Part shown: positions 225 to 50,784 of the stretch, piece by piece
Position numbering within the stretch: the stretch's first letter is position 1
Layout of the letters: each line of letters begins with the position of its first letter
Assembly: GCA_032718475.1 (NCBI GenBank)
Contig: JAUCBJ010001918.1
Location: forward strand, 1 to 50,784
DNA from: Nemertoderma westbladi
Taxonomy: Eukaryota > Animalia > Xenacoelomorpha
DNA: 50,784 bases
Reading direction: 5' to 3'
Notes under the pieces: generated by a model
What the model was told of the DNA's origin: nothing
What the model saw: only the letters and a program-made list of their open reading frames with translations
Database searches by the model: none
Made by a program: the position numbers and the translations under genes

Positions 225-362
225 CTTGTCGGTCACCATGACGTCACTATAAGCGTGAACTTTGTATGCGCCTCTGATCTTCCGAACTCCGGGATATAAA
301 AGTTTAGCCATATTGATAAATGCGACTCCGTGGAATGTGTAACTGGTATCCTCCACTGACTC
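225..362 (-). CDS. CFAP70: Internal coding exon of CFAP70/TTC18 (ESVEDTSYTFHGVAFINMAKLLYPGVRKIRGAYKVHAYSDVMVTDK); gene continues off the left end
   Basis: Acceptor cttttccag| before 362, donor AAG|gttgga after 225; 138 nt, phase 0/0. Peptide resembles the vertebrate CFAP70 segment [29 protein letters not shown] (recalled, not searched). Confidence 0.85.
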
Positions 363-23061: not shown

Positions 23062-23108
23062 TATCTATATCCTCTACTTTGCGGCGGTTTTTCATAAACA
23101 TTCGATGG
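23058..23108 (-). CDS. Candidate 51-nt symmetric cassette exon (PSNVYEKPPQSRGYRYK) in the CFAP70 intron
   Basis: Acceptor ttgcctgcag|, donor TAAG|gtagtc coinciding with the start of the 43-bp array; open in phase 0. No homology support that I can recall. Confidence 0.35.
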
Positions 23109-26500: not shown

Positions 26501-29500
26501 TCTGCTGTTTGTCCGTTGGAATTGCTTTGACTCAGCTTTTCCTTGGCTGCTTTCTGCTGTTTGTACGTTGGAATTGCTTTGACTCACCTTTCCCTTGGCT
26601 GCTTTCTGCTGTTTGTCCTTTGGAATTGCTTTGACTCACCTTCCCTCTCGTCTACTTTCTGCTGTTTGTCCCTTCCCTCTCGTCTACTTTCTGCTGTTTG
26701 TCCGTTGGAATTGCTTTGACTCACCTTTCCCTTGGCTGCTTTCTGTTGTTTGTCCGTTGGAATTGCTTTGACTCACCTTCCCCTAGGCGGCTTTGTCCGT
26801 TGGAATTGCTTTGACTCACCTTCCCTCTCGTCTACTTTCTGCTGTTTGTCCGTTGGAATTGCTTTGACTCAGCTTTTCCTTGGCTGCTTTCTGCTGTTTG
26901 TCCGTTGAAATTACTTTGACTCACCTTTCCCTTGGCTGCTTTCTGTTGTTTGTCCGTTGGAATTGTTTTGACTCACCTTCCCCTAGGCGGCTTTGTCCGT
27001 TGGAATTGCTTTGACTCACCTTTCCCTTGGTTGCTTTCTGCTGTTTGTCCGTTGGAATTGCTTTGACTCACCTTTCCCTTGGCTGCTTTCTGCTGTTTGT
27101 CCTTTAGAATTGCTTTGACTCACCTTCCCTCTCGTCTACTTTCAGATGTTTGTCCGTTGGAATTGCTTTGACTCACCTTCCCACTCGGCTGCTTTCTGCT
27201 GTTTGTCCGTTGGAATTGCTTTGATTCACCTTCCCTCTCGGCGGCTTTATGCTGTTTGTCCGTTGGAATTGCTTTGACTCACCTTCCCTCTCGGCTGCTT
27301 TCTGCTGTTTGTCCGTTGGAATTGCTTTGACTCGCCTTTCCACTTGCCCACTTTCTGCTGTTTGTCCGTTGGAATTGCTTTGACTCACCTTCCCTCTCGT
27401 CTACTTTCTTCTGTTTGTCCGTTGGAATTGCTTTGACCCACCTTCCCTCTCGGCGGCTTTATGCTGTTTGTCCGTTGGAATTGCTTTGACTCACCTTCCC
27501 TCTCGTCTACTTTCTTCTGTTTGTCCGTTGGAATTGCTTCGACTCACCTTCCCCTTGGCTGCTTTCTGCTGTTTGTCCATTGGAATTGCTTTGACTCACC
27601 TTCCCCTAGGCAGCTTTGTCCGTTGGAATTGCTTTGACTCACCTTCCCTCTCGTCTACTTTCTTCTGTTTGTCCGTTGGAATTGCTTTGACTCGCCTTTC
27701 CACTTGCCCACTTTCTGCTGTTTGTCCGTTGGAATTGCTTTGACTCACCTTCCCTCTCGTCTACTTTCTTCTGTTTGTCCGTTGGAATTGCTTTGACCCA
27801 CCTTCCCTCTCGGCGGCTTTATGCTGTTTGTCCGTTGGAATTGCTTTGACTCACCTTCCCTCTCGTCTACTTTCTTCTGTTTGTCCGTTGGAATTGCTTT
27901 GCCTCACCTTTCCTCTCGTCTACTTTCTGCTGTTTGTCCGTTGGAATTCCATTGACTCACCTTCCCCTAGGCAGCTTTGTCCGTAGGAATTGCTTTGACT
28001 CACCTTCCTTCTCGTCTACGTTCTGCTGTTTGTCCGTTGGAATTGCTTTGACTCACCTTTCCCTTGGCTGCTTTCTGCTGTTTGTCCGTTGGAATTGCTT
28101 TGACTCACCTTTCCTCTCGTCTACTTTCTGCTGTTTGTCCGTTGGAATTCCATTGACTCACCTTCCCCTAGGCAGCTTTGTCCGTTGGAATTGCTTTGAC
28201 TCACCTTTCCCTTGGCTGCTTTCTGTTGTTTGTCCGTTGGAATTGCTTTGACTCGCCTTTCCCTTGGCTGCTTTATGTTGTTTGTCCGTAGGAATTGCTT
28301 TGACTCACCTTTCCCTTGGCTGCTTTCTGTTGTTTGTCCGTAGGAATTGCTTTGACTCACCTTTCCCTTGGCTGCTTTCTGCTGTTTGTCCGTTGGAATT
28401 GCTTTGACTCACCTTCCCTCTCGGCTGCTTTATGCTGTTTGTCCGTTGGAATTGCTTTGACTCACCTTCCCACTCGGCTGCTTTCTGCTGTTTGTCCGTT
28501 GGAATTGCTTTGATTCACCTTCCCCTTGGTTGCTTTCTGCTGTTTGTCCTTTGGAATTGCTTTTACTCACCTTTCCCTTGGCTGCTTTCTGCTGTTTGTC
28601 CGTTGGAATTGCTTTGACTCACCTTCCCTCTCGGCTGCTTTATGCTGTTTGTCCGTTGGAATTGCTTTGACTCACCTTTCCCTTGGCTGCTTTCTGCTGT
28701 TTGTCCGTTGAAATTGCTTTTACTCACCTTTCACTTGGCTGCTTTCTGCTGTTTGTCCGTTGGAATTGCTTTGACTCACCTTCCCCCTCGGCTGCTTTCT
28801 GCTGTTTGTCCGTTGGAATTGCTTTGACTCACCTTCCCTCTCGGCGGCTTTATGCTGTTTGTCCGTTGGAATTGCTTTTACTCACCTTCCCCCTCGGCTG
28901 CTTTTTGCTGTTTGTCCTTTGGAATTGCTTTGACTCACCTTCCCACTCGGCTGCTTTCTGCTGTTTGTCCGTTGGAATTGCTTTGATTCACCTTCCCTCT
29001 CGGCGGCTTTATGCTGTTTGTCCGTTGGAATTGCTTTGACTCACCTTCCCTCTCGGCTGCTTTCTGCTGTTTGTCCGTTGGAATTGCTTTGACTCGCCTT
29101 TCCACTTGCCCACTTTCTGCTGTTTGTCCGTTGGAATTGCTTTGACCCACCTTCCCTCTCGGCGGCTTTATGCTGTTTGTCCGTTGGAATTGCTTTGACT
29201 CACCTTCCCTCTCGTCTACTTTCTTCTGTTTGTCCGTTGGAATTGCTTCGACTCACCTTCCCCTTGGCTGCTTTCTGCTGTTTGTCCATTGGAATTGCTT
29301 TGACTCACCTTCCCCTAGGCAGCTTTGTCCGTTGGAATTGCTTTGACTCACCTTTCCCTTGGCTGCTTTCTGCTGTTTGTCCGTTGGAATTGCTTTGACT
29401 CACCTTCCCCTAGGCAGCTTTGTCCGTTGGAATTGCTTTGACTCACCTTTCCCTTGGCTGCTTTCTGTTGTTTGTCCGTTGGAATTGCTTTGACTCGCCT

Positions 29501-32500
29501 TTCCCTTGGCTGCTTTCTGTTGTTTGTCCGTTGGAATTGCTTTGACTCACCTTTCCCTTGGCTGCTTTCTGTTGTTTGTCCGTTGGAATTGCTTTGACTC
29601 ACCTTTCCTCTCGTCTACTTTCTGCTGTTTGTCCGTTGGAATTCCATTGACTCACCTTCCCCTAGGCAGCTTTGTCCGTTGGAATTGCTTTGACTCACCT
29701 TTCCCTTGGCTGCTTTCTGTTGTTTGTCCGTTGGAATTGCTTTGACTCGCCTTTCCCTTGGCTGCTTTCTGTTGTTTGTCCGTTGGAATTGCTTTGACTC
29801 ACCTTTCCCTTGGCTGCTTTCTGTTGTTTGTCCGTTGGAATTGCTTTGACTCACCTTTCCTCTCGTCTACTTTCTGCTGTTTGTCCGTTGGAATTCCATT
29901 GACTCACCTTCCCCTAGGCAGCTTTGTCCGTTGGAATTGCTTTGACTCACCTTCCCCCTCGGCTGCTTTCTGCTGTTTGTCCTTTGGAATTGCTTTGACT
30001 CACCTTCCCACTCGGCTGCTTTCTGCTGTTTGTCCGTTGGAATTGCTTTGATTCACCTTCCCCCTCGGCTGCTTTCTGCTGTTTGTCCTTTGGAATTGCT
30101 TTGACTCACCTTCCCACTCGGCTGCTTTCTGCTGTTTGTCCGTTGGAATTGCTTTTACTCACCTCTCACTTGGCTGCTTTCTGCTGTTTGTCCGTTGGAA
30201 TTGCTTTGACTCACCTTCCCTCTCGGCTGCTTTCTGCTGTTTGTCCGTAGGAATTGCTTTGACTCACCTTCCCACTCGGCTGCTTTCTGCTGTTTGTCCG
30301 TTGGAATTGCTTTTACTCACCTCTCACTTGGCTGCTTTCTGCTGTTTGTCCGTTGGAATTGCTTTGACTCACCTTCCCTCTCGGCTGCTTTCTGCTGTTT
30401 GTCCGTTGGAATTGCTTTGGCCCACCTTCCCTCTCGGCTGCTTTCTGCTGTTTGTCCGTTGGAATTGCTTTGACTCACCTTCCCTCTCGGCTGCTTTCTG
30501 CTGTTTGTCCGTAGGAATTGCTTTGACTCACCTTTCCCTTGGCTGCTTTCTGCTGTTTGTCCGTAGGAATTGCTTTGACTCACCTTCCCCTTGGCTGCTT
30601 TCTGCTGTTTGTCCGTTGGAATTGCTTTGAATCACCTTCCCTTTCGGCTGCTTTCTGCTGTTTGTCCGTTGGAATTGCTTTGATTCACCTTCCCCTTGGC
30701 TGCTTTCTGCTGTTTGTCCGTAGGAATTGCTTTGACTCACCTTTCACTCGGCTGCTTTCTGCTGTTTGTCCGTTGGAATTGCTTTTACTCACCTCTCACT
30801 TGGCTGCTTTCTGCTGTTTGTCCGTTGGAATTGCTTTGACTCACCTTCCCTCTCGGCTGCTTTCTGCTGTTTGTCCGTTGGAATTGCTTTGGCCCACCTT
30901 CCCTCTCGGCTGCTTTCTGCTGTTTGTCCGTTGGAATTGCTTTGACTCACCTTCCCTCTCGGCTGCTTTCTGCTGTTTGTCCGTAGGAATTGCTTTGACT
31001 CACCTTTCCCTTGGCTGCTTTCTGCTGTTTGTCCGTAGGAATTGCTTTGACTCACCTTCTCCTTGGCTGCTTTCTGCTGTTTGTCCGTTGGAATTGCTTT
31101 GAATCACCTTCCCTTTCGGCTGCTTTCTGCTGTTTGTCCGTTGGAATTGCTTTGATTCACCTTCCCCTTGGCTGCTTTCTGCTGTTTGTCCGTAGGAATT
31201 GCTTTGACTCACCTTCCCCTTGGCTGCTTTCTGCTGTTTGTCCGTTGGAATTGCTTTGACTCACCATCCCTCTCGGCTGCTTTCTGCTGTTTGTCCGTTG
31301 GAATTGCTTTGACTCACCTTTCCACTTGCCCACTTTCTGCTGTTTGTCCGTTGGAATTGCTTTGAATCAACTTCCCTTTCGGCTGCTTTCTGCTGTTTGT
31401 CCGTTGGAATTGCTTTGACTCACCTTTACACTTGCCCACTTTCTGCTGTTTGTCCGTTGGAATTGCTTTGACTCACCTCCCCTCTCGTCTACTTTCTTCT
31501 GTTTGTCCGTTGGAATTGCTTCGACTCACCTTCCCCTCGGCTACTTTCTGCTGTTTGTCCGTTGGAATTGCTTTGACTCACCTTCCCTCTCGGCTGCTTT
31601 ATGCTGTTTGTCCGTTGGAATTGCTTTGACTCACCTTTCCACTTGCCCACTTTCTGCTGTTTGTCCGTTGGAATTGCTTTGACTCACCTTCCCTCTCGGC
31701 TGCTTTATGCTGTTTGTCCGTTGGAATTGCTTTGACTCACCTTTCCACTTGCCCACTTTCTGCTGTTTGTCCGTTGGAATTGCTTTGACTCACCTTCCCT
31801 CTCGGCTGCTTTATGCTGTTTGTCCGTTGGAATTGCTTTGACTCACCTTTCCACTTGCCCACTTTCTGTTGTTTGTCCGTAGGAATTGCTTTGACTCACC
31901 TTTCCCTTGGCTGCTTTCTGCTGTTTGTCCGTTGGAATTGCTTTGACTCACCTTCCCTCTCGTCTACTTTCTTCTGTTTGTCCGTTGGAATTGCTTTGAC
32001 TCACCTCCCCTCTCGTCTACTTTCTTCTGTTTGTCCGTTGGAATTGCTTCGACTCACCTTCCCCTCGGCTACTTTCTGCTGTTTGTCCGTTGGAATTGCT
32101 TTGACTCAGCTTTTCCTTGGCTGCTTTCTGCTGTTTGTCCGTTGGAATTGCTTTGACTCACCTTTCCCTTGGCTGCTTTCTGCTGTTTGTCCATTGGAAT
32201 TGCTTTGACTCACCTTCCCCTAGGCGGCTTTGTCCGTTGGAATTGCTTTGACTCACCTTTCCCTTGGCTGATTTCTGCTGTTTGTCCGTTGGAATTGCTT
32301 TGACTCACCTTTCCCTTGGCTGCTTTCTGCTGTTTGTCCGTTGGAATTCCTTTGACTCACCTTTCCCTTGGCTGCTTTCTGTTGTTTGTCCGTAGGAATT
32401 GCTTTGACTCACCTTTCCCTTGGCTGCTTTCTGTTGTTTGTCCGTAGGAATTGCTTTGACTCGCCTTTCCCTTGGCTGCTTTCTGTTGTTTGTCCGTAGG

Positions 32501-35500
32501 AATTGCTTTGACTCACCTTCCTTCTCGTCTACGTTCTGTTGTTTGTCCGTAGGAATTGCTTTGACTCGCCTTTCCCTTGGCTGCTTTCTGTTGTTTGTCC
32601 GTAGGAATTGCTTTGACTCACCTTCCTTCTCGTCTACGTTCTGTTGTTTGTCCGTTGGAATTGCTTTTACTCACCTTTCCCTTGGCTGCTTTCTGTTGTT
32701 TGTCCGTAGGAATTGCTTTGACTCACCTTCCTTCTCGTCTACGTTCTGTTGTTTGTCCGTTGGAATTGCTTTGATTCACCTTTCACTTGGCTGCTTTCTG
32801 TTGTTTGTCCGTTGGAATTGCTTTGACTCACCTTCCCCTTGGCTGCTTTCTGCTGTTTGTCCGTTGGAATTGCTTTGACTCACCTTTCCACTTGGCTGCT
32901 TTCTGTTGTTTGTCCGTTGGAATTGCTTTTACTCACCTTTCCCTTGGCTGCTTTCTGTTGTTTGTCCGTAGGAATTGCTTTGACTCACCTTTCCCTTGGC
33001 TGCTTTCTGTTGTTTGTCCGTAGGAATTGCTTTGACTCACCTTTCCCTTGGCTGCTTTCTGCTGTTTGTCCGTAGGAATTGCTTTGACTCACCTTCCCCT
33101 TGGCTGCTTTCTGCTGTTTGTCCGTTGGAATTGCTTTGACTCACCTTTCCACTTGGCTGCTTTCTGCTGTTTGTCCGTTGGAATTGCTTTGACTCACCTT
33201 TCCCTTGGCTGCTTTCTGTTGTTTGTCCGTAGGAATTGCTTTGACTCACCTTTCCCTTGGCTGCTTTCTGCTGTTTGTCCGTAGGAATTGCTTTGACTCA
33301 CCTTCCCCTTGGCTGCTTTCTGCTGTTTGTCCGTTGGAATTGCTTTGACTCACCTTCCCACTCGGCTGCTTTCTGTTGTTTGTCCGTTGGAATTGCTTTG
33401 ACTCACCTTCCTTCTCGTCTACGTTCTGTTGTTTGTCCGTAGGAATTGCTTTGACTCGCCTTTCCCTTGGCTGCTTTCTGTTGTTTGTCCGTAGGAATTG
33501 CTTTGACTCACCTTCCTTCTCGTCTACGTTCTGTTGTTTGTCCGTTGGAATTGCTTTTACTCACCTTTCCCTTGGCTGCTTTCTGTTGTTTGTCCGTAGG
33601 AATTGCTTTGACTCACCTTTCCCTTGGCTGCTTTCTGTTGTTTGTCCGTAGGAATTGCTTTGACTCACCTTTCCCTTGGCTGCTTTCTGCTGTTTGTCCG
33701 TAGGAATTGCTTTGACTCACCTTCCCCTTGGCTGCTTTCTGCTGTTTGTCCGTTGGAATTGCTTTGACTCACCTTTCCACTTGGCTGCTTTCTGCTGTTT
33801 GTCCGTTGGAATTGCTTTGACTCACCTTTCCCTTGGCTGCTTTCTGTTGTTTGTCCGTAGGAATTGCTTTGACTCACCTTCCTTCTCGTCTACGTTCTGC
33901 TGTTTGTCCGTTGGAATTGCTTTGACTCACCTTTCCCTTGGCTGCTTTCTGTTGTTTGTCCGTAGGAATTGCTTTGACTCACCTTTCCCTTGGCTGCTTT
34001 CTGTTGTTTGTCCGTAGGAATTGCTTTGACTCACCTTTCCCTTGGCTGCTTTCTGCTGTTTGTCCGTAGGAATTGCTTTGACTCACCTTTCCCTTGGCTG
34101 CTTTCTGCTGTTTGTCCGTTGGAATTGCTTTGACTCACCTTCCCACTCGGCTGCTTTCTGCTGTTTGTCCGTTGGAATTGCTTTGACTCACCTTCCCACT
34201 CGGCTGCTTTCTGCTGTTTGTCCGTAGGAATTGCTTTGACTCACCTTCCTTCTCGTCTACGTTCTGCTGTTTGTCCGTTGGAATTGCTTTGACTCACCTT
34301 TCCCTTGGCTGCTTTCTGCTGTTTGTCCGTTGGAATTGCTTTGACTCACCTTCCCACTCGGCTGCTTTCTGCTGTTTGTCCGTAGGAATTGCTTTGACTC
34401 ACCTTTCCCTTGGCTGCTTTCTGCTGTTTGTCCGTTGGAATTGCTTTGACTCACCTTCCCACTCGGCTGCTTTCTGCTGTTTGTCCGTTGGAATTGCTTT
34501 GACTCACCTTTCCCTTGGCTGCTTTCTGTTGTTTGTCCGTAGGAATTGCTTTGACTCACCTTTCCCTTGGCTGCTTTCTGCTGTTTGTCCGTAGGAATTG
34601 CTTTGACTCACCTTTCCCTTGGCTGCTTTCTGCTGTTTGTCCGTAGGAATTGCTTTGACTCACCTTTCCCTTGGCTGCTTTCTGCTGTTTGTCCGTTGGA
34701 ATTGCTTTGACTCACCTTCCCACTCGGCTGCTTTCTGCTGTTTGTCCGTTGGAATTGCTTTGACTCACCTTCCCTCTCGGCTGCTTTCTGCTGTTTGTCC
34801 GTAGGAATTGCTTTGACTCACCTTCCCACTCGGCTGCTTTCTGCTGTTTGTCCGTTGGAATTGCTTTTACTCACCTCTCACTTGGCTGCTTTCTGCTGTT
34901 TGTCCGTTGGAATTGCTTTGACTCACCTTCCCTCTCGGCTGCTTTCTGCTGTTTGTCCGTTGGAATTGCTTTGGCCCACCTTCCCTCTCGGCTGCTTTCT
35001 GCTGTTTGTCCGTTGGAATTGCTTTGACTCACCTTCCCTCTCGGCTGCTTTCTGCTGTTTGTCCGTAGGAATTGCTTTGACTCACCTTTCCCTTGGCTGC
35101 TTTCTGCTGTTTGTCCGTAGGAATTGCTTTGACTCACCTTCCCCTTGGCTGCTTTCTGCTGTTTGTCCGTTGGAATTGCTTTGAATCACCTTCCCTTTCG
35201 GCTGCTTTCTGCTGTTTGTCCGTTGGAATTGCTTTGATTCACCTTCCCCTTGGCTGCTTTCTGCTGTTTGTCCGTAGGAATTGCTTTGACTCACCTTTCA
35301 CTCGGCTGCTTTCTGCTGTTTGTCCGTTGGAATTGCTTTTACTCACCTCTCACTTGGCTGCTTTCTGCTGTTTGTCCGTTGGAATTGCTTTGACTCACCT
35401 TCCCTCTCGGCTGCTTTCTGCTGTTTGTCCGTTGGAATTGCTTTGGCCCACCTTCCCTCTCGGCTGCTTTCTGCTGTTTGTCCGTTGGAATTGCTTTGAC

Positions 35501-38500
35501 TCACCTTCCCTCTCGGCTGCTTTCTGCTGTTTGTCCGTAGGAATTGCTTTGACTCACCTTTCCCTTGGCTGCTTTCTGCTGTTTGTCCGTAGGAATTGCT
35601 TTGACTCACCTTCTCCTTGGCTGCTTTCTGCTGTTTGTCCGTTGGAATTGCTTTGAATCACCTTCCCTTTCGGCTGCTTTCTGCTGTTTGTCCGTTGGAA
35701 TTGCTTTGATTCACCTTCCCCTTGGCTGCTTTCTGCTGTTTGTCCGTAGGAATTGCTTTGACTCACCTTCCCCTTGGCTGCTTTCTGCTGTTTGTCCGTT
35801 GGAATTGCTTTGACTCACCATCCCTCTCGGCTGCTTTCTGCTGTTTGTCCGTTGGAATTGCTTTGACTCACCTTTCCACTTGCCCACTTTCTGCTGTTTG
35901 TCCGTTGGAATTGCTTTGAATCAACTTCCCTTTCGGCTGCTTTCTGCTGTTTGTCCGTTGGAATTGCTTTGACTCACCTTTACACTTGCCCACTTTCTGC
36001 TGTTTGTCCGTTGGAATTGCTTTGACTCACCTCCCCTCTCGTCTACTTTCTTCTGTTTGTCCGTTGGAATTGCTTCGACTCACCTTCCCCTCGGCTACTT
36101 TCTGCTGTTTGTCCGTTGGAATTGCTTTGACTCACCTTCCCTCTCGGCTGCTTTATGCTGTTTGTCCGTTGGAATTGCTTTGACTCACCTTTCCACTTGC
36201 CCACTTTCTGCTGTTTGTCCGTTGGAATTGCTTTGACTCACCTTCCCTCTCGGCTGCTTTATGCTGTTTGTCCGTTGGAATTGCTTTGACTCACCTTTCC
36301 ACTTGCCCACTTTCTGCTGTTTGTCCGTTGGAATTGCTTTGACTCACCTTCCCTCTCGGCTGCTTTATGCTGTTTGTCCGTTGGAATTGCTTTGACTCAC
36401 CTTTCCACTTGCCCACTTTCTGTTGTTTGTCCGTAGGAATTGCTTTGACTCACCTTTCCCTTGGCTGCTTTCTGCTGTTTGTCCGTTGGAATTGCTTTGA
36501 CTCACCTTCCCTCTCGTCTACTTTCTTCTGTTTGTCCGTTGGAATTGCTTTGACTCACCTCCCCTCTCGTCTACTTTCTTCTGTTTGTCCGTTGGAATTG
36601 CTTCGACTCACCTTCCCCTCGGCTACTTTCTGCTGTTTGTCCGTTGGAATTGCTTTGACTCAGCTTTTCCTTGGCTGCTTTCTGCTGTTTGTCCGTTGGA
36701 ATTGCTTTGACTCACCTTTCCCTTGGCTGCTTTCTGCTGTTTGTCCATTGGAATTGCTTTGACTCACCTTCCCCTAGGCGGCTTTGTCCGTTGGAATTGC
36801 TTTGACTCACCTTTCCCTTGGCTGATTTCTGCTGTTTGTCCGTTGGAATTGCTTTGACTCACCTTTCCCTTGGCTGCTTTCTGCTGTTTGTCCGTTGGAA
36901 TTCCTTTGACTCACCTTTCCCTTGGCTGCTTTCTGTTGTTTGTCCGTAGGAATTGCTTTGACTCACCTTTCCCTTGGCTGCTTTCTGTTGTTTGTCCGTA
37001 GGAATTGCTTTGACTCGCCTTTCCCTTGGCTGCTTTCTGTTGTTTGTCCGTAGGAATTGCTTTGACTCACCTTCCTTCTCGTCTACGTTCTGTTGTTTGT
37101 CCGTAGGAATTGCTTTGACTCGCCTTTCCCTTGGCTGCTTTCTGTTGTTTGTCCGTAGGAATTGCTTTGACTCACCTTCCTTCTCGTCTACGTTCTGTTG
37201 TTTGTCCGTTGGAATTGCTTTTACTCACCTTTCCCTTGGCTGCTTTCTGTTGTTTGTCCGTAGGAATTGCTTTGACTCACCTTCCTTCTCGTCTACGTTC
37301 TGTTGTTTGTCCGTTGGAATTGCTTTGATTCACCTTTCACTTGGCTGCTTTCTGTTGTTTGTCCGTTGGAATTGCTTTGACTCACCTTCCCCTTGGCTGC
37401 TTTCTGCTGTTTGTCCGTTGGAATTGCTTTGACTCACCTTTCCACTTGGCTGCTTTCTGTTGTTTGTCCGTTGGAATTGCTTTTACTCACCTTTCCCTTG
37501 GCTGCTTTCTGTTGTTTGTCCGTAGGAATTGCTTTGACTCACCTTTCCCTTGGCTGCTTTCTGTTGTTTGTCCGTAGGAATTGCTTTGACTCACCTTTCC
37601 CTTGGCTGCTTTCTGCTGTTTGTCCGTAGGAATTGCTTTGACTCACCTTCCCCTTGGCTGCTTTCTGCTGTTTGTCCGTTGGAATTGCTTTGACTCACCT
37701 TTCCACTTGGCTGCTTTCTGCTGTTTGTCCGTTGGAATTGCTTTGACTCACCTTTCCCTTGGCTGCTTTCTGTTGTTTGTCCGTAGGAATTGCTTTGACT
37801 CACCTTTCCCTTGGCTGCTTTCTGCTGTTTGTCCGTAGGAATTGCTTTGACTCACCTTCCCCTTGGCTGCTTTCTGCTGTTTGTCCGTTGGAATTGCTTT
37901 GACTCACCTTCCCACTCGGCTGCTTTCTGTTGTTTGTCCGTTGGAATTGCTTTGACTCACCTTCCTTCTCGTCTACGTTCTGTTGTTTGTCCGTAGGAAT
38001 TGCTTTGACTCGCCTTTCCCTTGGCTGCTTTCTGTTGTTTGTCCGTAGGAATTGCTTTGACTCACCTTCCTTCTCGTCTACGTTCTGTTGTTTGTCCGTT
38101 GGAATTGCTTTTACTCACCTTTCCCTTGGCTGCTTTCTGTTGTTTGTCCGTAGGAATTGCTTTGACTCACCTTTCCCTTGGCTGCTTTCTGTTGTTTGTC
38201 CGTAGGAATTGCTTTGACTCACCTTTCCCTTGGCTGCTTTCTGCTGTTTGTCCGTAGGAATTGCTTTGACTCACCTTCCCCTTGGCTGCTTTCTGCTGTT
38301 TGTCCGTTGGAATTGCTTTGACTCACCTTTCCACTTGGCTGCTTTCTGCTGTTTGTCCGTTGGAATTGCTTTGACTCACCTTTCCCTTGGCTGCTTTCTG
38401 TTGTTTGTCCGTAGGAATTGCTTTGACTCACCTTCCTTCTCGTCTACGTTCTGCTGTTTGTCCGTTGGAATTGCTTTGACTCACCTTTCCCTTGGCTGCT

Positions 38501-39728
38501 TTCTGTTGTTTGTCCGTAGGAATTGCTTTGACTCACCTTTCCCTTGGCTGCTTTCTGTTGTTTGTCCGTAGGAATTGCTTTGACTCACCTTTCCCTTGGC
38601 TGCTTTCTGCTGTTTGTCCGTAGGAATTGCTTTGACTCACCTTTCCCTTGGCTGCTTTCTGCTGTTTGTCCGTTGGAATTGCTTTGACTCACCTTCCCAC
38701 TCGGCTGCTTTCTGCTGTTTGTCCGTTGGAATTGCTTTGACTCACCTTCCCACTCGGCTGCTTTCTGCTGTTTGTCCGTAGGAATTGCTTTGACTCACCT
38801 TCCTTCTCGTCTACGTTCTGCTGTTTGTCCGTTGGAATTGCTTTGACTCACCTTTCCCTTGGCTGCTTTCTGCTGTTTGTCCGTTGGAATTGCTTTGACT
38901 CACCTTCCCACTCGGCTGCTTTCTGCTGTTTGTCCGTAGGAATTGCTTTGACTCACCTTTCCCTTGGCTGCTTTCTGCTGTTTGTCCGTTGGAATTGCTT
39001 TGACTCACCTTCCCACTCGGCTGCTTTCTGCTGTTTGTCCGTTGGAATTGCTTTGACTCACCTTTCCCTTGGCTGCTTTCTGTTGTTTGTCCGTAGGAAT
39101 TGCTTTGACTCACCTTTCCCTTGGCTGCTTTCTGCTGTTTGTCCGTAGGAATTGCTTTGACTCACCTTTCCCTTGGCTGCTTTCTGCTGTTTGTCCGTAG
39201 GAATTGCTTTGACTCACCTTTCCCTTGGCTGCTTTCTGCTGTTTGTCCGTTGGAATTGCTTTGACTCACCTTCCCACTCGGCTGCTTTCTGCTGTTTGTC
39301 CGTTGGAATTGCTTTGACTCACCTTCCCCTTGGCTGCTTTCTGCTGTTTGTCCGTTGGAATTGCTTTGACTCACCTTCCCACTCGGCTGCTTTCTGCTGT
39401 TTGTCCGTTGGAATTGCTTTGACTCACCTTTCCCTTGGCTGCTTTCTGTTGTTTGTCCGTAGGAATTGCTTTGACTCACCTTTCCCTTGGCTGCTTTCTG
39501 TTGTTTGTCCGTAGGAATTGCTTTGACTCACCTTTCCCTTGGCTGCTTTCTGCTGTTTGTCCGTAGGAATTGCTTTGACTCACCTTCCCCTTGGCTGCTT
39601 TCTGCTGTTTGTCCGTTGGAATTGCTTTGACTCACCTTTCCCTTGGCTGCTTTCTGCTGTTTGTCCGTTGGAATTGCTTTGACTCACCTTTCCCTTGGCT
39701 GCTTTCTGTTGTTTGTCCGTAGGAATTG
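23592..39728. repeat. 52/53-bp satellite array of about 16.1 kb (about 310 units), derived from the CFAP70 exon end plus its 5' splice site
   Basis: Minus-strand unit caattccaacggacaaacagcagaaagcagccaagggaaag|gtgagtcaaag; the terminal unit is the last 41 nt of exon 39688-39781. Confidence 0.98.
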
Positions 39729-39781
39729 TTCTCATTACTTCAACCGGCCAGTACCGAGTCGACGCTATCTTTGATTGTAAC
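39688..39781 (-). CDS. CFAP70: CFAP70 internal exon ((K)LQSKIASTRYWPVEVMRTIPTDKQQKAAKGK)
   Basis: Acceptor tttattag|G, donor AAG|gtgagt; 94 nt, phase 2 to 0; only this frame is open. Resembles recalled CFAP70 FQKRIADCRLWPVEITR. Confidence 0.85.
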
Positions 39782-40127: not shown

Positions 40128-40277
40128 TTTTGCGCCAAATTTGGTTCAACGAAATGACAGCGTTCCATGTTCCACACAACGCGGTTCTTATTCTGTTCGG
40201 CATCGGAACGCATATCGTGGTCGTCTTTGGAACGGAGTTCCCCACACTCATCCTCGTAGTGTGTTTGTGGTAAACAA
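40128..40277 (-). CDS. CFAP70: CFAP70 internal exon (CLPQTHYEDECGELRSKDDHDMRSDAEQNKNRVVWNMERCHFVEPNLAQ)
   Basis: Acceptor gtgttccag|T, donor AA|gttagt; 150 nt, phase 2/2, joins the next exon in frame. Resembles recalled CFAP70 YEEEEGELNHPEDSEFRNQAE...RIIWDLESRCYLDP. Confidence 0.85.
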
Positions 40278-40781
40278 CTGGAACACAAATAATAAACAAC
40301 TAGAACACAAACAATAAACAACTGGGACACAAACAATAAACAACTGGAACACAAACAATAAACAACTGGGACACAAACAATAAACAACTGGAACACAAAC
40401 AATAAGCGACTGGAAAACAAACAATAAACAACTGGAACACAAACAATATACAACTGAAACACAAACAACTGGAACACAAATAATAAACAACTGGAACACA
40501 AACAATAAACAACTGGAACACAAACAATATACAACTGAAACACAAACAACTGGAACACAAATAATAAACAACTGGAACACAAACAATAAACAATTGGAAC
40601 ACAAACAATAAACAACTGGAACACAAACAATAAACAACTGAAACACAAACACAAACAATAAACAACTGGAACACAAACAATAAACAACTGGAACACAAAC
40701 AATAATCAACTGGAACACTAATAATAAACAACTGCAACACAAACAATAAACAACTGGAACACTAACAATAATCAACTAGAA
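40271..40781. repeat. 22-bp tandem array (about 23 units) derived from the CFAP70 3' splice site
   Basis: Minus-strand unit ttgtttgtgttccag|ttgttta; the last copy is the real acceptor plus the first 7 exon nucleotides. Confidence 0.95.
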
Positions 40782-43700
40782 CTCTGTCCAATTGAATTAA
40801 CAACGTGTGTCCAACTTACCTGTCAGTTATATAAGAACTCTGTCCAACTGAATTAACAACGTGTGTCCAAATTACCGGTCAGTTATATAAGAACTCTGCC
40901 CAACTGAATTAACAACGTGTGTCCATATTACGGGTCAGTTATATAAGAACTCTGTCCAACTGAATTAACAACGTGTGTCCAAATTACCGGTCAGTTATAT
41001 AAGAACTCTGCCCAACTGAATTAACAACGTGTGTCTAACTTACCTGTCAGTTATATAAGAACTCTGACCAACTGAATTAACAACGTGTGTCTAACTTACC
41101 TGTCAGTTATATAAGAACTCTGCCCAACTGAATTAATAACTTGTGTCCAACTTACCTGTCAGTTATATAAGAACTATAAGAACTCTGCCCAACTGAATTA
41201 ACAACGTGTGTCTAACTTACCTGTCAGTTATATAAGAACTCTGCCCAACTGAATTAATAACTTGTGTCCAACTTACCGGTCAGTTATATAAGAACTCTGC
41301 CCAACTGAATTAACAACGTGTGTCCAAATTACCGGTCAGTTATATAAGAACTCTGCCCAACTGAATTAACAACGTGTGTCCAACTTACCGGTCAGTTATA
41401 TAAGAACTCTGCCCAACTGAATTAATAACTTGTGTCCAACTTACCTGTCAGTTATATAAGAACTCTGTCCAACTGAATTAACAACGTGTGTCCAAATTAC
41501 CGGTCAGTTATATAAGAACTCTGCCCAACTGAATTAACAACGTGTGTCCAACTTACCGGTCAGTTATATAAGAACTCTGCCCAACTGAATTAATAACTTG
41601 TGTCCAACTTACCTGTCAGTTATATAAGAACTCTGTCCAACTGAATTAACAACGTGTGTCCAAATTACCGGTCAGTTATATAAGAACTCTGCCCAACTGA
41701 ATTAACAACGTGTGTCTAACTTACCTGTCAGTTATATAAGAACTCTGCCCAACTGAATTAATAACTTGTGTCCAACTTACCTGTCAGTTATATAAGAACT
41801 CTGTCCAACTGAATTAACAACGTGTGTCCAAATTACCGGTCAGTTATATAAGAACTCTGCCCAACTGAATTAACAACGTGTGTCCAACTTACCTGTCAGT
41901 TATATAAGAACTCTGTCCAACTGAATTAACAACGTGTGTCCAACTTACCTGTTAGTTATATAAGAACTCTGTCCAACTGAATTAACAACGTGTGTCCAAC
42001 TTACCGGTCAGTTATATAAGAACTCTGCCCAACTGAATTAACAACGTGTGTCTAACTTACCTGTCAGTTATATAAGAACTCTGCCCAACTGAATTAATAA
42101 CTTGTGTCCAACTTACCGGTCAGTTATATAAGAACTCTGCCCAACTGAATTAATAACTTGTGTCCAACTTACCGGTCAGTTATATAAGAACTCTGCCCAA
42201 CTGAATTAACAACGTGTGTCCAACTTACGGGTCAGTTATAAGAACTCTGCCCAACTGAATTAACAACGTGTGTCTAACTTACCTGTCAGTTATATAAGAA
42301 CTCTGCCCAACTGAATTAATAACTTGTGTCCAACTTACCGGTCAGTTATATAAGAACTCTGTCCAACTGAATTAACAACTTGTGTTCAACTTACCTGTCA
42401 GTTATATAAGAACTCTGCCCAACTGAATTAACAACGTGTGTCTAACTTACCTGTCAGTTATATAAGAACTCTGCCCAACTGAATTAATAACTTGTGTCAA
42501 ACTTACCGGTCAGTTATATAAGAACTCTGTCCAACTGAATTAACAACTTGTGTTCAACTTACCTGTCAGTTATATAAGAACTCTGTCCAACTGAATTAAC
42601 AACGTGTGTCCAACTTACCGGTCAGTTATATAAGAACTCTGTCCAACTGAATTAACAACGTGTGTCCAACTTACCGGTCAGTTGAATAAGAACTCTGCCC
42701 AACTGAATTAATAACTTGTGTCCAACTTACCGGTCAGTTATATAAGAACTCTGCCCAACTGAATTAATAACTTGTGTCCAACTTACCGGTCAGTTATATA
42801 AGAACTCTGCCCAACTGAATTAACAACGTGTGTCCAACTTACGGGTCAGTTATAAGAACTCTGCCCAACTGAATTAACAACGTGTGTCTAACTTACCTGT
42901 CAGTTATATAAGAACTCTGCCCAACTGAATTAATAACTTGTGTCCAACTTACCGGTCAGTTATATAAGAACTCTGTCCAACTGAATTAACAACTTGTGTT
43001 CAACTTACCTGTCAGTTATATAAGAACTCTGCCCAACTGAATTAACAACGTGTGTCTAACTTACCTGTCAGTTATATAAGAACTCTGCCCAACTGAATTA
43101 ATAACTTGTGTCAAACTTACCGGTCAGTTATATAAGAACTCTGTCCAACTGAATTAACAACTTGTGTTCAACTTACCTGTCAGTTATATAAGAACTCTGT
43201 CCAACTGAATTAACAACGTGTGTCCAACTTACCGGTCAGTTATATAAGAACTCTGTCCAACTGAATTAACAACGTGTGTCCAACTTACCGGTCAGTTGAA
43301 TAAGAACTACGTCCAACTGAATTAACAGCGTATGTCCAACTTACCTGTCAGTTATATAAGAACTCTGTCCAACTGAATTAATAACTTGTGTTCAACTTAC
43401 CTGTCAGTTATATAAGAACTCTGTCCAACTGAATTAACAACGTGTGTCCAACTTACGGGTCAGTTATATAAGAACTCTGCCGAACTGAATTAACAACGTG
43501 TGTCTAACTTACCTGTCAGTTATATAAGAACTCTGCCCAACTGAATTAATAACTTGTGTCAAACTTACCGGTCAGTTATATAAGAACTCTGTCCAACTGA
43601 ATTAACAACTTGTGTTCAACTTACCTGTCAGTTATATAAGAACTCTGTCCAACTGAATTAACAACGTGTGTCCAACTTACCGGTCAGTTATATAAGAACT

Positions 43701-46700
43701 CTGTCCAACTGAATTAACAACGTGTGTCCAACTTACCGGTCAGTTGAATAAGAACTCCGTCCAACTGAATTAACAGCGTATGTCCAACTTACCTGTCAGT
43801 TATATAAGAACTCTGTCCAACTGAATTAACAACTTGTGTCCAACTTACCTGTCAGTTATATAAGAACTCTGCCCAACTGAATTAACAACTTGTGTCCAAC
43901 TTACCGGTCAGTTATATAACCAACTGAATTAACAACGTGTGTCCAACTTACCTGTCATTTATATAAGAACTCTGTCCAACTGAATTAACAACGTGTGTCC
44001 AACTTAACTGTCAGTTATAAAAGAATTCTGCCCAACTGAATTAACAAGGTGTGTCCAACTTACCTGTCAGTTATATAAGAACTCTGCCCAACTGAATTAA
44101 CAACGTGTGTCCAACTTACCTGTCAGTTATATAAGAACTCTGCCCAACTGAATTAACAACGTGTGTCCAACTTACCGGTCAGTTATATAAGAACTCTGTC
44201 CAACTTAATTAACAACGTGTGTCCAACTTACCGGTCAGTTAAATAAGAACTCTGCCCAACTTATTTAACAACGTGTGTCCAACTTACCTGTCAGTTATAT
44301 AAGAACCTTGTCCAACTGTATTAACAACGTGTGTTCAAATTACCGGTCAGTTATATAAGAACTCTGCCCAACTGAATTAACAACGTGTGTTCAACTTACG
44401 GGTCAGTTATATAAGAACTCTGCCCAACTGAATTAACAACGTGTGTCTAACTTACCTGTCAGTTATATAAGAACTCTGCCCAACTGAATTAATAACTTGT
44501 GTCCAACTTACCGGTCAGTTATATAAGAACTCTGTCCAACTGAATTAACAACTTGTGTTCAACTTACCTGTCAGTTATATAAGAACTCTGTCCAACTGAA
44601 TTAACAACGTGTGTCCAACTTACCGGTCAGTTATATAAGAACTCTGTCCAACTGAATTAACAACGTGTGTCCAACTTTCCGGTCAGTTAAATAAGAACTC
44701 CGTCCAACTGAATTAACAGCGTATGTCCAACTTACCTGTCAGTTATATAAGAACTCTGTCCAACTGAATTAACAACTTGTGTCCAACTTACCTGTCAGTT
44801 ATATAAGAACTCTGCCCAACTGAATTAACAACTTGTGTCCAACTTACCGTTCAGTTATATAACCAACTGAATTAACAACGTGTGTCCAACTTACCTGTCA
44901 TTTATATAAGAACTCTGTCCAACTGAATTAAAAACGTGTGTCCAACTTAACCGTCAGTTATAAAATAATTCTGCCCAACTGAATTAACAAGGTGTGTCCA
45001 ACTTACCTGTCAGTTATATAAGAACTCTGCCCAACTGAATTAACAACGTGTTTCCAACTTACGTGTCAGTTATATAAGAACTCTGCCCAACTGAATTAAC
45101 AACGTGTGTCCAAATTACCGGTCAGTTATATAAGAACTCTGCCCAACTGAATTAACAACGTGTGTCCAACTTACCGGTCAGTTATATAAGAACTCTGCCC
45201 AACTGAATTAATAACTTGTGTCCAACTTACCTGTCAGTTATATAAGAACTCTGTCCAACTGAATTAACAACGTGTGTCCAAATTACCGCTTAGTTATATA
45301 AGAACTCTGCCCAACTGAATTAACAACGTGTGTCTAACTTACCTGTCAGTTATATAAGAACTCTGCCCAACTGAATTAACAAGGTGTGTCTAACTTACCT
45401 GTCAGTTATATAAGAACCCTGCCCAACTGAATTAATAACTTGTGTCAAACTTACCGGTCAGTTATATAAGAACTCTGTCCAACTGAATTAACAACTTGTG
45501 TTCAACTTACCTGTCAGTTATATAAGAACTCTGTCCAACTGAATTAACAACGTGTGTCCAACTTACCGGTCAGTTATATAAGAACTCTGTCCAACTGAAT
45601 TAACAACGTGTGTCCAACTTACCGGTCAGTTGAATAAGAACTCCGTCCAACTGAATTAACAGCGTATGTCCAACTTACCTGTCAGTTATATAAGAACTCT
45701 GTCCAACTGAATTAATAACTTGTGTTCAACTTACCTGTCAGTTATATAAGAACTCTGTCCAACTGAATTAACAACGTGTGTCCAACTTACGGGTCAGTTA
45801 TATAAGAACTCTGCCCAACTGAATTAACAACGTGTGTCTAACTTACCTGTCAGTTATATAAGAACTCTGCCCAACTGAATTTATAACTTGTGTCAAACTT
45901 ACCGGTCAGTTATATAAGAACTCTGTCCAACTGAATTAACAACTTGTGTTCAACTTACCTGTCAGTTATATAAGAACTCTGTCCAACTGAATTAACAACG
46001 TGTGTCCAACTTACCGGTCAGTTATATAAGAACTCTGTCCAACTGAATTAACAACGTGTGTCCAACTTACCGGTCAGTTGAATAAGAACTCCGTCCAACT
46101 GAATTAACAGCGTATGTCCAACTTACCTGTCAGTTATATAAGAACTCTGTCCAACTGAATTAACAACTTGTGTCCAACTTACCTGTCAGTTATATAAGAA
46201 CTCTGCCCAACTGAATTAACAACTTGTGTCCAACTTACCGGTCAGTTATATAACCAACTGAATTAACAACGTGTGTCCAACTTACCTGTCATTTATATAA
46301 GAACTCTGTCCAACTGAATTAACAACGTGTGTCCAACTTAACTGTCAGTTATAAAAGAATTCTGCCCAACTGAATTAACAAGGTGTGTCCAACTTACCTG
46401 TCAGTTATATAAGAACTCTGCCCAACTGAATTAACAACGTGTGTCCAACTTACCTGTCAGTTATATAAGAACTCTGCCCAACTGAATTAACAACGTGTGT
46501 CCAACTTACCGGTCAGTTATATAAGAACTCTGTCCAACTTAATTAACAACGTGTGTCCAACTTACCGGTCAGTTAAATAAGAACTCTGCCCAACTTATTT
46601 AACAACGTGTGTCCAACTTACCTGTCAGTTATATAAGAACCTTGTCCAACTGTATTAACAACGTGTGTTCAAATTACCGGTCAGTTATATAAGAACTCTG

Positions 46701-49700
46701 CCCAACTGAATTAACAACGTGTGTTCAACTTACGGGTCAGTTATATAAGAACTCTGCCCAACTGAATTAACAACGTGTGTCTAACTTACCTGTCAGTTAT
46801 ATAAGAACTCTGCCCAACTGAATTAATAACTTGTGTCCAACTTACCGGTCAGTTATATAAGAACTCTGTCCAACTGAATTAACAACTTGTGTTCAACTTA
46901 CCTGTCAGTTATATAAGAACTCTGTCCAACTGAATTAACAACGTGTGTCCAACTTACCGGTCAGTTATATAAGAACTCTGTCCAACTGAATTAACAACGT
47001 GTGTCCAACTTTCCGGTCAGTTAAATAAGAACTCCGTCCAACTGAATTAACAGCGTATGTCCAACTTACCTGTCAGTTATATAAGAACTCTGTCCAACTG
47101 AATTAACAACTTGTGTCCAACTTACCTGTCAGTTATATAAGAACTCTGCCCAACTGAATTAACAACTTGTGTCCAACTTACCGTTCAGTTATATAACCAA
47201 CTGAATTAACAACGTGTGTCCAACTTACCTGTCATTTATATAAGAACTCTGTCCAACTGAATTAAAAACGTGTGTCCAACTTAACCGTCAGTTATAAAAG
47301 AATTCTGCCCAACTGAATTAACAAGGTGTGTCCAACTTACCTGTCAGTTATATAAGAACTCTGCCCAACTGAATTAACAACGTGTTTCCAACTTACGTGT
47401 CAGTTATATAAGAACTCTGCCCAACTGAATTAACAACGTGTGTCCAACTTACCGGTCAGTTATATAAGAACTCTGTCCAACTTAATTAACAACGTGTGTC
47501 CAACTTACCGGTCAGTTAAATAAGAACTCTGCCCAACTTATTTAACAACGTGTGTCCAACTTACCTGTCAGTTATATAAGAACCTTGTCCAACTGTATTA
47601 ACAACGTGTGTTCAAATTACCGGTCAGTTATATAAGAACTCTGCCCAACTGAATTAACAACGTGTGTTCAACTTACGGGTCAGTTATATAAGAACTCTGC
47701 CCAACTGAATTAACAACGTGTGTCTAACTTACCTGTCAGTTATATAAGAACTCTGCCCAACTGAATTAATAACTTGTGTCCAACTTACCGGTCAGTTATA
47801 TAAGAACTCTGTCCAACTGAATTAACAACGTGTGTCCAACTTTCCGGTCAGTTAAATAAGAACTCCGTCCAACTGAATTAACAGCGTATGTCCAACTTAC
47901 CTGTCAGTTATATAAGAACTCTGTCCAACTGAATTAACAACTTGTGTCCAACTTACCTGTCAGTTATATAAGAACTCTGCCCAACTGAATTAACAACTTG
48001 TGTCCAACTTACCGTTCAGTTATATAACCAACTGAATTAACAACGTGTGTCCAACTTACCTGTCATTTATATAAGAACTCTGTCCAACTGAATTAAAAAC
48101 GTGTGTCCAACTTAACCGTCAGTTATAAAAGAATTCTGCCCAACTGAATTAACAAGGTGTGTCCAACTTACCTGTCAGTTATATAAGAACTCTGCCCAAC
48201 TGAATTAACAACGTGTTTCCAACTTACGTGTCAGTTATATAAGAACTCTGCCCAACTGAATTAACAACGTGTGTCCAAATTACCGGTCAGTTATATAAGA
48301 ACTCTGCCCAACTGAATTAACAACGTGTGTCCAACTTACCGGTCAGTTATATAAGAACTCTGCCCAACTGAATTAATAACTTGTGTCCAACTTACCTGTC
48401 AGTTATATAAGAACTCTGTCCAACTGAATTAACAACGTGTGTCCAAATTACCGCTTAGTTATATAAGAACTCTGCCCAACTGAATTAACAACGTGTGTCT
48501 AACTTACCTGTCAGTTATATAAGAACTCTGCCCAACTGAATTAACAAGGTGTGTCTAACTTACCTGTCAGTTATATAAGAACCCTGCCCAACTGAATTAA
48601 TAACTTGTGTCAAACTTACCGGTCAGTTATATAAGAACTCTGTCCAACTGAATTAACAACTTGTGTTCAACTTACCTGTCAGTTATATAAGAACTCTGTC
48701 CAACTGAATTAACAACGTGTGTCCAACTTACCGGTCAGTTATATAAGAACTCTGTCCAACTGAATTAACAACGTGTGTCCAACTTACCGGTCAGTTGAAT
48801 AAGAACTCCGTCCAACTGAATTAACAGCGTATGTCCAACTTACCTGTCAGTTATATAAGAACTCTGTCCAACTGAATTAATAACTTGTGTTCAACTTACC
48901 TGTCAGTTATATAAGAACTCTGTCCAACTGAATTAACAACGTGTGTCCAACTTACGGGTCAGTTATATAAGAACTCTGCCCAACTGAATTAACAACGTGT
49001 GTCTAACTTACCTGTCAGTTATATAAGAACTCTGCCCAACTGAATTTATAACTTGTGTCAAACTTACCGGTCAGTTATATAAGAACTCTGTCCAACTGAA
49101 TTAACAACTTGTGTTCAACTTACCTGTCAGTTATATAAGAACTCTGTCCAACTGAATTAACAACGTGTGTCCAACTTACCGGTCAGTTATATAAGAACTC
49201 TGTCCAACTGAATTAACAACGTGTGTCCAACTTACCGGTCAGTTGAATAAGAACTCCGTCCAACTGAATTAACAGCGTATGTCCAACTTACCTGTCAGTT
49301 ATATAAGAACTCTGTCCAACTGAATTAACAACTTGTGTCCAACTTACCTGTCAGTTATATAAGAACTCTGCCCAACTGAATTAACAACTTGTGTCCAACT
49401 TACCGGTCAGTTATATAACCAACTGAATTAACAACGTGTGTCCAACTTACCTGTCATTTATATAAGAACTCTGTCCAACTGAATTAACAACGTGTGTCCA
49501 ACTTAACTGTCAGTTATAAAAGAATTCTGCCCAACTGAATTAACAAGGTGTGTCCAACTTACCTGTCAGTTATATAAGAACTCTGCCCAACTGAATTAAC
49601 AACGTGTGTCCAACTTACCTGTCAGTTATATAAGAACTCTGCCCAACTGAATTAACAACGTGTGTCCAACTTACCGGTCAGTTATATAAGAACTCTGTCC

Positions 49701-50784
49701 AACTTAATTAACAACGTGTGTCCAACTTACCGGTCAGTTAAATAAGAACTCTGCCCAACTTATTTAACAACGTGTGTCCAACTTACCTGTCAGTTATATA
49801 AGAACCTTGTCCAACTGTATTAACAACGTGTGTTCAAATTACCGGTCAGTTATATAAGAACTCTGCCCAACTGAATTAACAACGTGTGTTCAACTTACGG
49901 GTCAGTTATATAAGAACTCTGCCCAACTGAATTAACAACGTGTGTCTAACTTACCTGTCAGTTATATAAGAACTCTGCCCAACTGAATTAATAACTTGTG
50001 TCCAACTTACCGGTCAGTTATATAAGAACTCTGTCCAACTGAATTAACAACTTGTGTTCAACTTACCTGTCAGTTATATAAGAACTCTGTCCAACTGAAT
50101 TAACAACGTGTGTCCAACTTACCGGTCAGTTATATAAGAACTCTGTCCAACTGAATTAACAACGTGTGTCCAACTTTCCGGTCAGTTAAATAAGAACTCC
50201 GTCCAACTGAATTAACAGCGTATGTCCAACTTACCTGTCAGTTATATAAGAACTCTGTCCAACTGAATTAACAACTTGTGTCCAACTTACCTGTCAGTTA
50301 TATAAGAACTCTGCCCAACTGAATTAACAACTTGTGTCCAACTTACCGTTCAGTTATATAACCAACTGAATTAACAACGTGTGTCCAACTTACCTGTCAT
50401 TTATATAAGAACTCTGTCCAACTGAATTAAAAACGTGTGTCCAACTTAACCGTCAGTTATAAAAGAATTCTGCCCAACTGAATTAACAAGGTGTGTCCAA
50501 CTTACCTGTCAGTTATATAAGAACTCTGCCCAACTGAATTAACAACGTGTTTCCAACTTACGTGTCAGTTATATAAGAACTCTGCCCAACTGAATTAACA
50601 ACGTGTGTCCAACTTACCGGTCAGTTATATAAGAACTCTGTCCAACTTAATTAACAACGTGTGTCCAACTTACCGGTCAGTTAAATAAGAACTCTGCCCA
50701 ACTTATTTAACAACGTGTGTCCAACTTACCTGTCAGTTATATAAGAACCTTGTCCAACTGTATTAACAACGTGTGTTCAAATTA
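40778..50784. repeat. 56-bp satellite array (at least 10 kb, at least 178 units, runs off the window) with C(A/C)G|GTAAGT on the minus strand
   Basis: Unit agaactctg(t/c)ccaactgaattaacaacgtgtgtccaacttacc(t/g)gtcagttatata; recurrent 47-bp deletion variant. Confidence 0.98.

What the first reader, a model, noticed from the sequence alone, without database searches (positions are those of the whole stretch)
40778..50784. The 56-bp unit predicts the unseen upstream exon end
On the minus strand the unit reads GTT GTT AAT TCA GTT GGA CAG AGT TCT TAT ATA ACT GAC AG|gtaagt. The phase 2 end joins exon 40277 to give ...GQSSYITDS-CLPQTHYEDECGEL, which aligns without gaps to recalled human ...ANNIPDAFIVGGxYEEEEGEL. 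The array should therefore end, beyond the window, in a CFAP70 exon. Each unit also contains ttaattcag and ctgacag|gt, so 28-nt microexons or recursive AG|GT sites are formally possible.
Basis: inference. Interest (0 to 1): 0.7.

Follow-up and report, generated by a model that had tools for sequence, protein, structure and literature searches.

The report
Splice-donor "mirage" repeat in CFAP70 intron
A 56-base piece matching the end of one exon of an animal cilia gene (CFAP70), splice signal included, is repeated at least 179 times in the next intron; the source exon likely lies just beyond the window and the copies are likely ignored in splicing, as in a kind of repeat already described in lancelet and human genes.

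Summary
The 56-bp unit (179 donor junctions, at least 10 kb) matches CFAP70 immediately upstream of exon 40277 in 1 of 112 registers; 0 of 500 shuffles matched as well. Its GT sits at an ancestral phase-2 exon end: 35 of 36 related loci have the matching acceptor, and 7 of 7 clearly matched upstream exons end there. Correction: about 50 bases of the unit are exonic, not 41; only GTAAGT is intronic. A 53-bp array starting inside a visible exon of the same gene shows the same anatomy. This is a "mirage" minisatellite (lancelet Adh3, globins; human F7 intron 7); this scan noted the same kind on other DNA. Microexons or later donors would meet a stop (167 of 167 microexons). Recursive use of AG|GT is untested: 83 of 179 junctions keep it, and an acceptor matrix did not exclude it. 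Unusual only in size, and in that the visible intron consists solely of a donor array fused to an acceptor array.

The parts
40778..50784 (-). [quoted passage not shown]
40820..40869 (-). exon-derived 50 nt of the last complete unit (16 codons from Trp to Asp, then 2 nt of a split codon), followed by the pseudo-donor at 40819
40271..40782 (-). 22-bp acceptor 'mirage' array, 24 AG-type junctions, the last being the authentic acceptor of exon 40277; abuts the 56-bp array with no unique DNA between, at a shared GTTCT
40128..40277 (-). CFAP70 exon A (150 nt, phase 2 at both ends), the exon to which the unseen exon is predicted to splice
39688..39781 (-). CFAP70 exon B (94 nt); its last 41 nt are the first copy of the 53-bp array
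23598..39728 (-). 52/53-bp donor 'mirage' array, 308 donor junctions, starting inside exon B: the visible in-window model for the 56-bp array
225..362 (-). CFAP70 exon C, next homologous exon, 39.3 kb downstream of exon B

Best explanation
The array is a tandem repeat whose unit matches the last 50 or so coding bases of the upstream CFAP70 exon plus the GTAAGT donor, so it likely arose by duplication of that exon/intron junction and likely runs up to the real exon beyond the window, with the copies probably silent in splicing. Shown: unit content, reading frame and phase, ancestral position of the intron, and the same anatomy with a visible source exon in the 53-bp array. Inferred: a first duplication across the junction (slippage or unequal exchange at a short shared motif), growth by minisatellite turnover and kilobase block duplications, and loss or absence of unique intron DNA between the donor and acceptor arrays. 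Inferred by analogy with human F7 intron 7: only the first donor is used, because it is the nearest 5' site after the exon's own acceptor; any slip to a later donor or microexon meets a stop and would be cleared by nonsense-mediated decay, so the array is tolerated rather than functional.
For:: against 13 CFAP70 homologues (13 of 34, about one per genus) the unit scores 23.9 in the phase-predicted register; next best of 112 registers -4.4; 0 of 2000 shuffles at that register (max 7.6) and 0 of 500 shuffles at their best register (max 18.0) reach it; Trp -16 in 13 of 13, Ile -3 in 12 of 13, Asp/Glu -1 in 13 of 13; 35 of 36 related genomic loci have AG at the same phase-2 acceptor; in all 7 loci where an unconstrained search found a clear upstream exon (score above 60) it ends at the unit's donor position with GT; motif search finds that exon end in 21 of 36 loci (16 of 23 sequence clusters; Trp 16 codons before the end in 6 clusters, 17 in 7, 18 in 3); the 53-bp array starts in exon B; 33 of 307 units carry the exon's last 41 nt exactly; mean distance 3.0 in the 50 units nearest the exon, 6.3 in the farthest 50 (values capped at 9); a stop follows the split codon at 175 of 179 donors; 167 of 167 possible microexons carry a stop; 54 of 178 units have a stop inside the copied coding part. 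Papers: PMC1557585, PMC3087553, PMC3902484.
Against: The exon was not seen and no transcript was examined, so adjacency and silence are inferred. Two family residues (Pro -13 in 12 of 13, Gly -12 in 11 of 13) are not matched by the unit. Decoy donors are not purged: 153 of 179 keep GTAAGT and 241 of 308 keep AAG|GTGAGT in the 53-bp array. A crude acceptor matrix gave the AG of AG|GT 5.5 and the internal AG 4.3, inside the range of the five authentic window acceptors (1.4-8.2), so their use is not excluded. F7 has 5-9 sites in mammalian cells; this is at least 179 in an unidentified animal. The search required a phase-2 GT, so it is not independent of the claim.
Confidence: 0.8

Rival explanations
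1. Same origin, but the AG|GT junctions act as dual-specific or recursive sites, so that the intron is removed in steps; the mature mRNA would be unchanged.
For: 83 of 179 junctions read AG|GT, all of these CAG|GTAAGT; the acceptor matrix did not exclude them (5.5). AGGT sites in tandem repeats are used in human UBC (PMC10809524, abstract) and a duplicated AGGT can make an intron, at 6-16% efficiency (PMC3265369, discussion).
Against: AG|GT follows automatically from copying an exon that ends in AG. The A is changed in 89 of 178 units, one of the two most variable columns (copies are not independent events). Only 5 of 11 bases before it are pyrimidines, against 6-9 at the five authentic acceptors, and the modal unit has other AGs 18 and 20 nt upstream. 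Mouse recursive sites are conserved, pyrimidine-rich and in introns over 51 kb (PMC8797253, passages).
Confidence: 0.08
2. The 28-nt stretch between the internal AG and the next GT is a poison microexon that is included at some rate and tunes CFAP70 level through nonsense-mediated decay.
For: The internal AG is present at 178 of 179 junctions, T-rich upstream, and 167 candidate microexons have both AG and GT; all carry a stop.
Against: An internal AG as good arises in 29% of 3000 shuffled units; 22 of 56 columns are invariant, so its invariance is unremarkable. Flanking spacers are only 28 nt, too short for neighbours to be spliced together (general knowledge). No such repeat at this junction in 36 related loci.
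Confidence: 0.06
3. The unit is exon-derived but the array no longer abuts a working exon (detached copy, broken gene), or its length is partly an assembly artefact.
For: The proximal end is unseen. Exact repeats of 2653 bp (lag 3165) in the 56-bp array and 4603 bp (lag 4554) in the 53-bp array fit either recent block duplication or assembly error.
Against: Exons A, B and C are open, in order, in compatible phases and 41-65% identical to mollusc CFAP70 over the aligned parts; the unit's phase fits exon A; the sister array is attached to its exon; 46 distinct units argue that the array itself is real.
Confidence: 0.05
4. The resemblance to CFAP70 is chance and the array is an unrelated satellite.
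For: Only 7 of 16 residues are identical to the closest homologue shown; tblastn alone gives E of 5-15.
Against: Register, phase and donor position all coincide with the ancestral exon end; 0 of 500 shuffles match as well in any register.
Confidence: 0.01

Closest known systems
Amphioxus 'mirage' minisatellites (Adh3, troponin C, globins BflGb6/BflGb9, PGBD5). Seen: passages of PMC3087553 and PMC3902484; the Adh3 and troponin C papers only through those passages
   Same: Tandem copies of an exon/intron boundary, at donors and at acceptors, several per gene, unit length within the 10-72 bp quoted for Adh3, many but not all copies keeping AG/GT.
   Different: Copy numbers quoted are 2-7 for globins and PGBD5; here at least 179 and 308. 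Here a donor array and an acceptor array are fused and make up all of the visible intron. Host is an unidentified animal with intron-poor housekeeping genes. Normal splicing was shown there by RT-PCR, not here.
Human F7 intron 7 37-bp VNTR (PMC1557585; abstract and discussion read)
   Same: First repeat element spans the exon/intron junction; a row of identical pseudo-donors follows.
   Different: Five to nine sites against at least 179; exclusive use of the first site was shown experimentally there and is only inferred here.
Human UBC tandem dual-specific AGGT sites (PMC10809524; abstract only)
   Same: Tandem array with AGGT at each unit boundary that could serve as donor or acceptor.
   Different: UBC units are coding, in frame and productively spliced; here units are 56 nt, out of frame, stop-bearing, and over half have lost AG|GT.
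Intron birth by tandem duplication of an AGGT site (PMC3265369, abstract and discussion; PMC2812944, passages)
   Same: Duplication across AG|GT makes a GT...AG segment automatically.
   Different: No new intron is born here: the intron position is ancestral (35 of 36 related loci); the repeat expanded an old intron.

Membership tests
Mirage / junction-spanning minisatellite | Head-to-tail tandem array of short units | tested here: met
   56 bp x 179.7, 91% matches
Mirage / junction-spanning minisatellite | Unit contains exon sequence of the host gene and the adjoining splice signal | tested here: met
   Unique register against CFAP70 homologues, donor at the ancestral exon end
Mirage / junction-spanning minisatellite | Terminal unit overlaps the authentic junction | not testable with these tools
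   Beyond the window for the 56-bp array, no genome held; met for the 53-bp and 22-bp arrays of the same gene
Mirage / junction-spanning minisatellite | Normal splicing at the authentic site only | not testable with these tools
   No RNA run could be laid on the locus
Mirage / junction-spanning minisatellite | Length polymorphism or instability | not testable with these tools
   One haplotype only; exact kilobase duplications inside the array are compatible but could be assembly error
Recursive / dual-specific splice sites | AG|GT motif inside a long intron | tested here: met
   83 of 179 junctions; intron at least 10.5 kb
Recursive / dual-specific splice sites | Strong 3' splice site with pyrimidine tract before AG|GT | tested here: inconclusive
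   5 of 11 pyrimidines against 6-9 at authentic sites, but matrix score 5.5 within the authentic range 1.4-8.2; matrix trained on 22 acceptors of other species
Recursive / dual-specific splice sites | Site conserved under selection | tested here: not met
   The A is changed in 89 of 178 units; no such array in 36 related loci
Recursive / dual-specific splice sites | Junction reads, lariats or saw-tooth coverage | not testable with these tools
   No RNA available; short reads could not be placed uniquely in this array anyway
Coding microexon cluster | Frame-preserving, stop-free microexons | tested here: not met
   157 of 167 are 28 nt; 167 of 167 carry a stop in frame
CFAP70 (TTC18) host gene | Homology and colinear exons | tested here: met
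   three exons colinear with residues 250-376 of mollusc CFAP70 P0003

The most novel reading that the evidence does not exclude
An intron built entirely from its own amplified splice junctions (at least 179 donors fused to 24 acceptors, no unique DNA) that is removed stepwise through the AG|GT junctions, or that feeds poison microexons to tune a ciliary gene: a mirage turned into working splicing machinery.
Probability: 0.1. Interest if true: 0.7.

Novelty: new member of a known kind. Interest (0 to 1): 0.25.

Why it matters
As it stands it is a large example of a known repeat class. Its value is as a natural stress test of splice-site choice: one gene must pick 1 donor among at least 179 and 308 near-identical ones and 1 acceptor among 24, far beyond the 5-9 sites of the F7 model, in an intron with no visible unique DNA to carry a branch point or enhancer. 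It also shows that such arrays can fill 65% of a gene-dense window (five arrays) and can mislead gene prediction. If stepwise or poison splicing were shown, it would be a new use of these repeats.

Tried and rejected
Whole genome: none held. Sequencing runs for 39735-40275: no RNA holder listed, so no reads could be laid; this blank is no evidence. Word-index protein search with exon A: no candidates. Exact look-up of the GINS4 and TRM1 proteins: 0 of 2 in the collection. Exact 21-mer of the unit in metagenome contigs: 0 matches. EPRS search to place the organism: best identities 69-70% spread over cnidarians, molluscs, echinoderms and annelids (120 of 2041 hits listed), so lineage unresolved beyond 'animal'. 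RNA structure masking the donors: three units fold worse than shuffles (z +1.81; 194 of 200 fold as well), rejected. Purging of decoy donors by selection: not seen in the 53-bp array. Coding array: longest open stretch 35 codons, rejected. Array units matching other window DNA: only the 53-bp unit did (exon B), none for the 43- and 60-bp units. One search was a mis-framed translation and the last translation was off frame (redone); one search split 72 units in two because of an internal sub-repeat (redone). Paper searches: searches gave the papers cited or unrelated ones; two searches gave none; none described a CFAP70 case or an array of this size, within the open library only. No supplements were read; copy numbers for lancelet Adh3 may be larger than those I saw quoted.

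Full report
What is there. Tandem Repeats Finder gives a 56-bp array from 40778 to the window end, 179.7 copies at 91% matches. Cut at a fixed anchor it has 179 donor-type junctions and 178 complete units (168 of 56 nt, 7 of 47, 2 of 54, 1 of 65; 46 distinct), mean 3.1 differences from the majority unit. It abuts a 22-bp array (40271-40782) with no unique DNA between, and that array ends in the acceptor of an exon at 40277.

Host gene. The exon 40277-40128 matches mouse CFAP70 (9ijj_k, E 2.4e-4). A search with the exon at 362-225 returned 34 proteins: those with a specific name are CFAP70/TTC18, the rest hypothetical or unnamed. tblastn with these places three colinear exons on the minus strand: A 40277-40128, B 39781-39688, C 362-225, with compatible phases. 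The organism is an animal with no close annotated relative (best EPRS identity 70%; exact look-ups empty). No genome is held.

Does the unit match the missing exon end? I scored the commonest unit against the 16 residues that precede exon A's split codon in 13 homologues (13 of the 34, about one per genus; 12 molluscs and one unnamed). Matches include Trp -16 (13 of 13), Gly -8 (9 of 13), Ser -6 (8 of 13), Tyr -4 (9 of 13), Ile -3 (12 of 13) and Asp/Glu -1 (13 of 13); the split codon would be Ser, as in 9 of 13. Against: Pro -13 and Gly -12 of the family are not matched. The mouse chain shows the same gapless Trp-to-Asp spacing.

Is the donor at a real exon end? A profile scan of metagenome contigs gave 36 genomic loci with an exon A homologue, 23 clusters at 97% identity. 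In 35 of 36 an AG stands at the same phase-2 position; L006 appears to lack the intron. An upstream search that did not ask for GT found a clear exon (score above 60) in 7 loci, and all 7 end at the unit's donor position with GT. A motif search that did require a phase-2 GT found the exon end in 21 of 36 loci, 16 of 23 clusters, with the Trp 16 (6 clusters), 17 (7) or 18 (3) codons before it; the other 15 loci gave none. None of the 36 has a repeat at this junction. The intron is ancestral and the array is lineage-specific.

In-window model. The 52/53-bp array (23598-39728) begins inside exon B: its unit is the exon's last 41 nt plus 11 intron bases. Of 307 units 33 carry the exon tail exactly, and units near the exon are closer to it (mean 3.0 against 6.3 differences, capped at 9). 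This shows the anatomy predicted for the 56-bp array, and warns that the true exon may differ from the commonest unit by a few bases. Of 11 splice sites in the window (counting the inferred one), 3 carry such arrays, all in CFAP70.

Microexons and recursive sites. Reading through the first donor meets a stop at once in 175 of 179 contexts, and all 167 possible microexons carry a stop, so neither route gives protein. The A of AG|GT is changed in 89 of 178 units, though copies are not independent events. Against my reading, a matrix built from 22 acceptors of other species scored the AG of AG|GT at 5.5, inside the range of the five authentic window acceptors (1.4-8.2), so sequence alone does not exclude recursive use; by pyrimidine count it is just below them. 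Folding gives no masking structure. No RNA could be examined.

Mechanism. Shown: content, frame, phase, ancestral position, sister arrays. Inferred: one duplication across the junction, then minisatellite turnover and block duplication (exact repeats of 2653 and 4603 bp, which could also be assembly error), and use of the first donor only. The last step rests on human F7 intron 7, where only the most upstream of 5-9 identical donors is used (PMC1557585, abstract and discussion), and on lancelet mirages, reported not to disturb splicing (PMC3087553 and PMC3902484, passages). Clearance of slips by nonsense-mediated decay is general knowledge, not tested.

Known kind. It works like, and on the testable features belongs to, the mirage class. 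I reached this reading before consulting earlier notes (stated); a word search then listed 8 notes of the same kind in other genomes, unchecked by me; none on this genome or sequence. Recursive splicing (PMC8797253, passages), UBC dual sites (PMC10809524, abstract) and intron birth by duplication (PMC3265369; PMC2812944, passages) are the nearest alternatives and fit less well.

Verdict. Prediction likely right (about 0.9 that the array ends in the CFAP70 exon), split point corrected, function likely none. New member of a known kind, notable for size and for an intron whose visible 10.5 kb is only donor and acceptor copies. Interest 0.25; 0.7 if stepwise or poison splicing were shown (probability about 0.1).

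Noticed in passing
window 362-39688: The 39.3-kb CFAP70 intron between exons B and C holds three whole genes: a GINS4/SLD5-like ORF (+, 2472-3143, single exon; name recalled from the sequence, not from a call), EPRS (-, about 11667-4149, three exons, same strand as the host) and a TRM1-like ORF (+, 16114-17856, single exon; name recalled). Nested, intron-poor housekeeping genes inside an intron-retaining ciliary gene.
   Followed up: partly
window 23058-23108 (-) and 18260-23061: The 43-bp array (108 copies) starts after a possible 51-nt in-frame, phase-0 exon (CAG acceptor, weak donor AAG|GTAGTC). Some mollusc CFAP70s have a short optional insert at this point. It may be a fourth mirage on an optional exon, or just a diverged terminal repeat unit; no homology test was passed.
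   Followed up: partly
window 40271-40782 (-): Acceptor array with 24 near-identical AG sites; the branch point of exon A must lie in repeat DNA.
   Followed up: partly
window 8070-10063: 60-bp array (30 copies, 97%) and a related 40-bp array inside EPRS intron 1, not at a splice site; one minus-strand frame is open for 592 codons, probably because 60 is a multiple of 3.
   Followed up: no
window 30172-39330 and 44967-50784: Exact duplications of 4603 bp (lag 4554) and 2653 bp (lag 3165) inside the arrays: very recent block duplications or assembly error.
   Followed up: no
window 40778-50784: The 56-bp unit has an internal 9-base near-repeat 23 nt apart, giving 23- and 33-bp sub-periods; some variants look like out-of-register conversion.
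   Followed up: no
window 17124-17279 (+): 36-bp coding repeat (4.2 copies) inserted in the TRM1-like ORF.
   Followed up: no
window 1342-1949: 147/292-bp tandem repeat in the intron just upstream of exon C.
   Followed up: no
L006:700-900: A CFAP70 homologue that appears to lack the otherwise conserved introns on both sides of exon A: intron loss or a transcript-derived contig.
   Followed up: no
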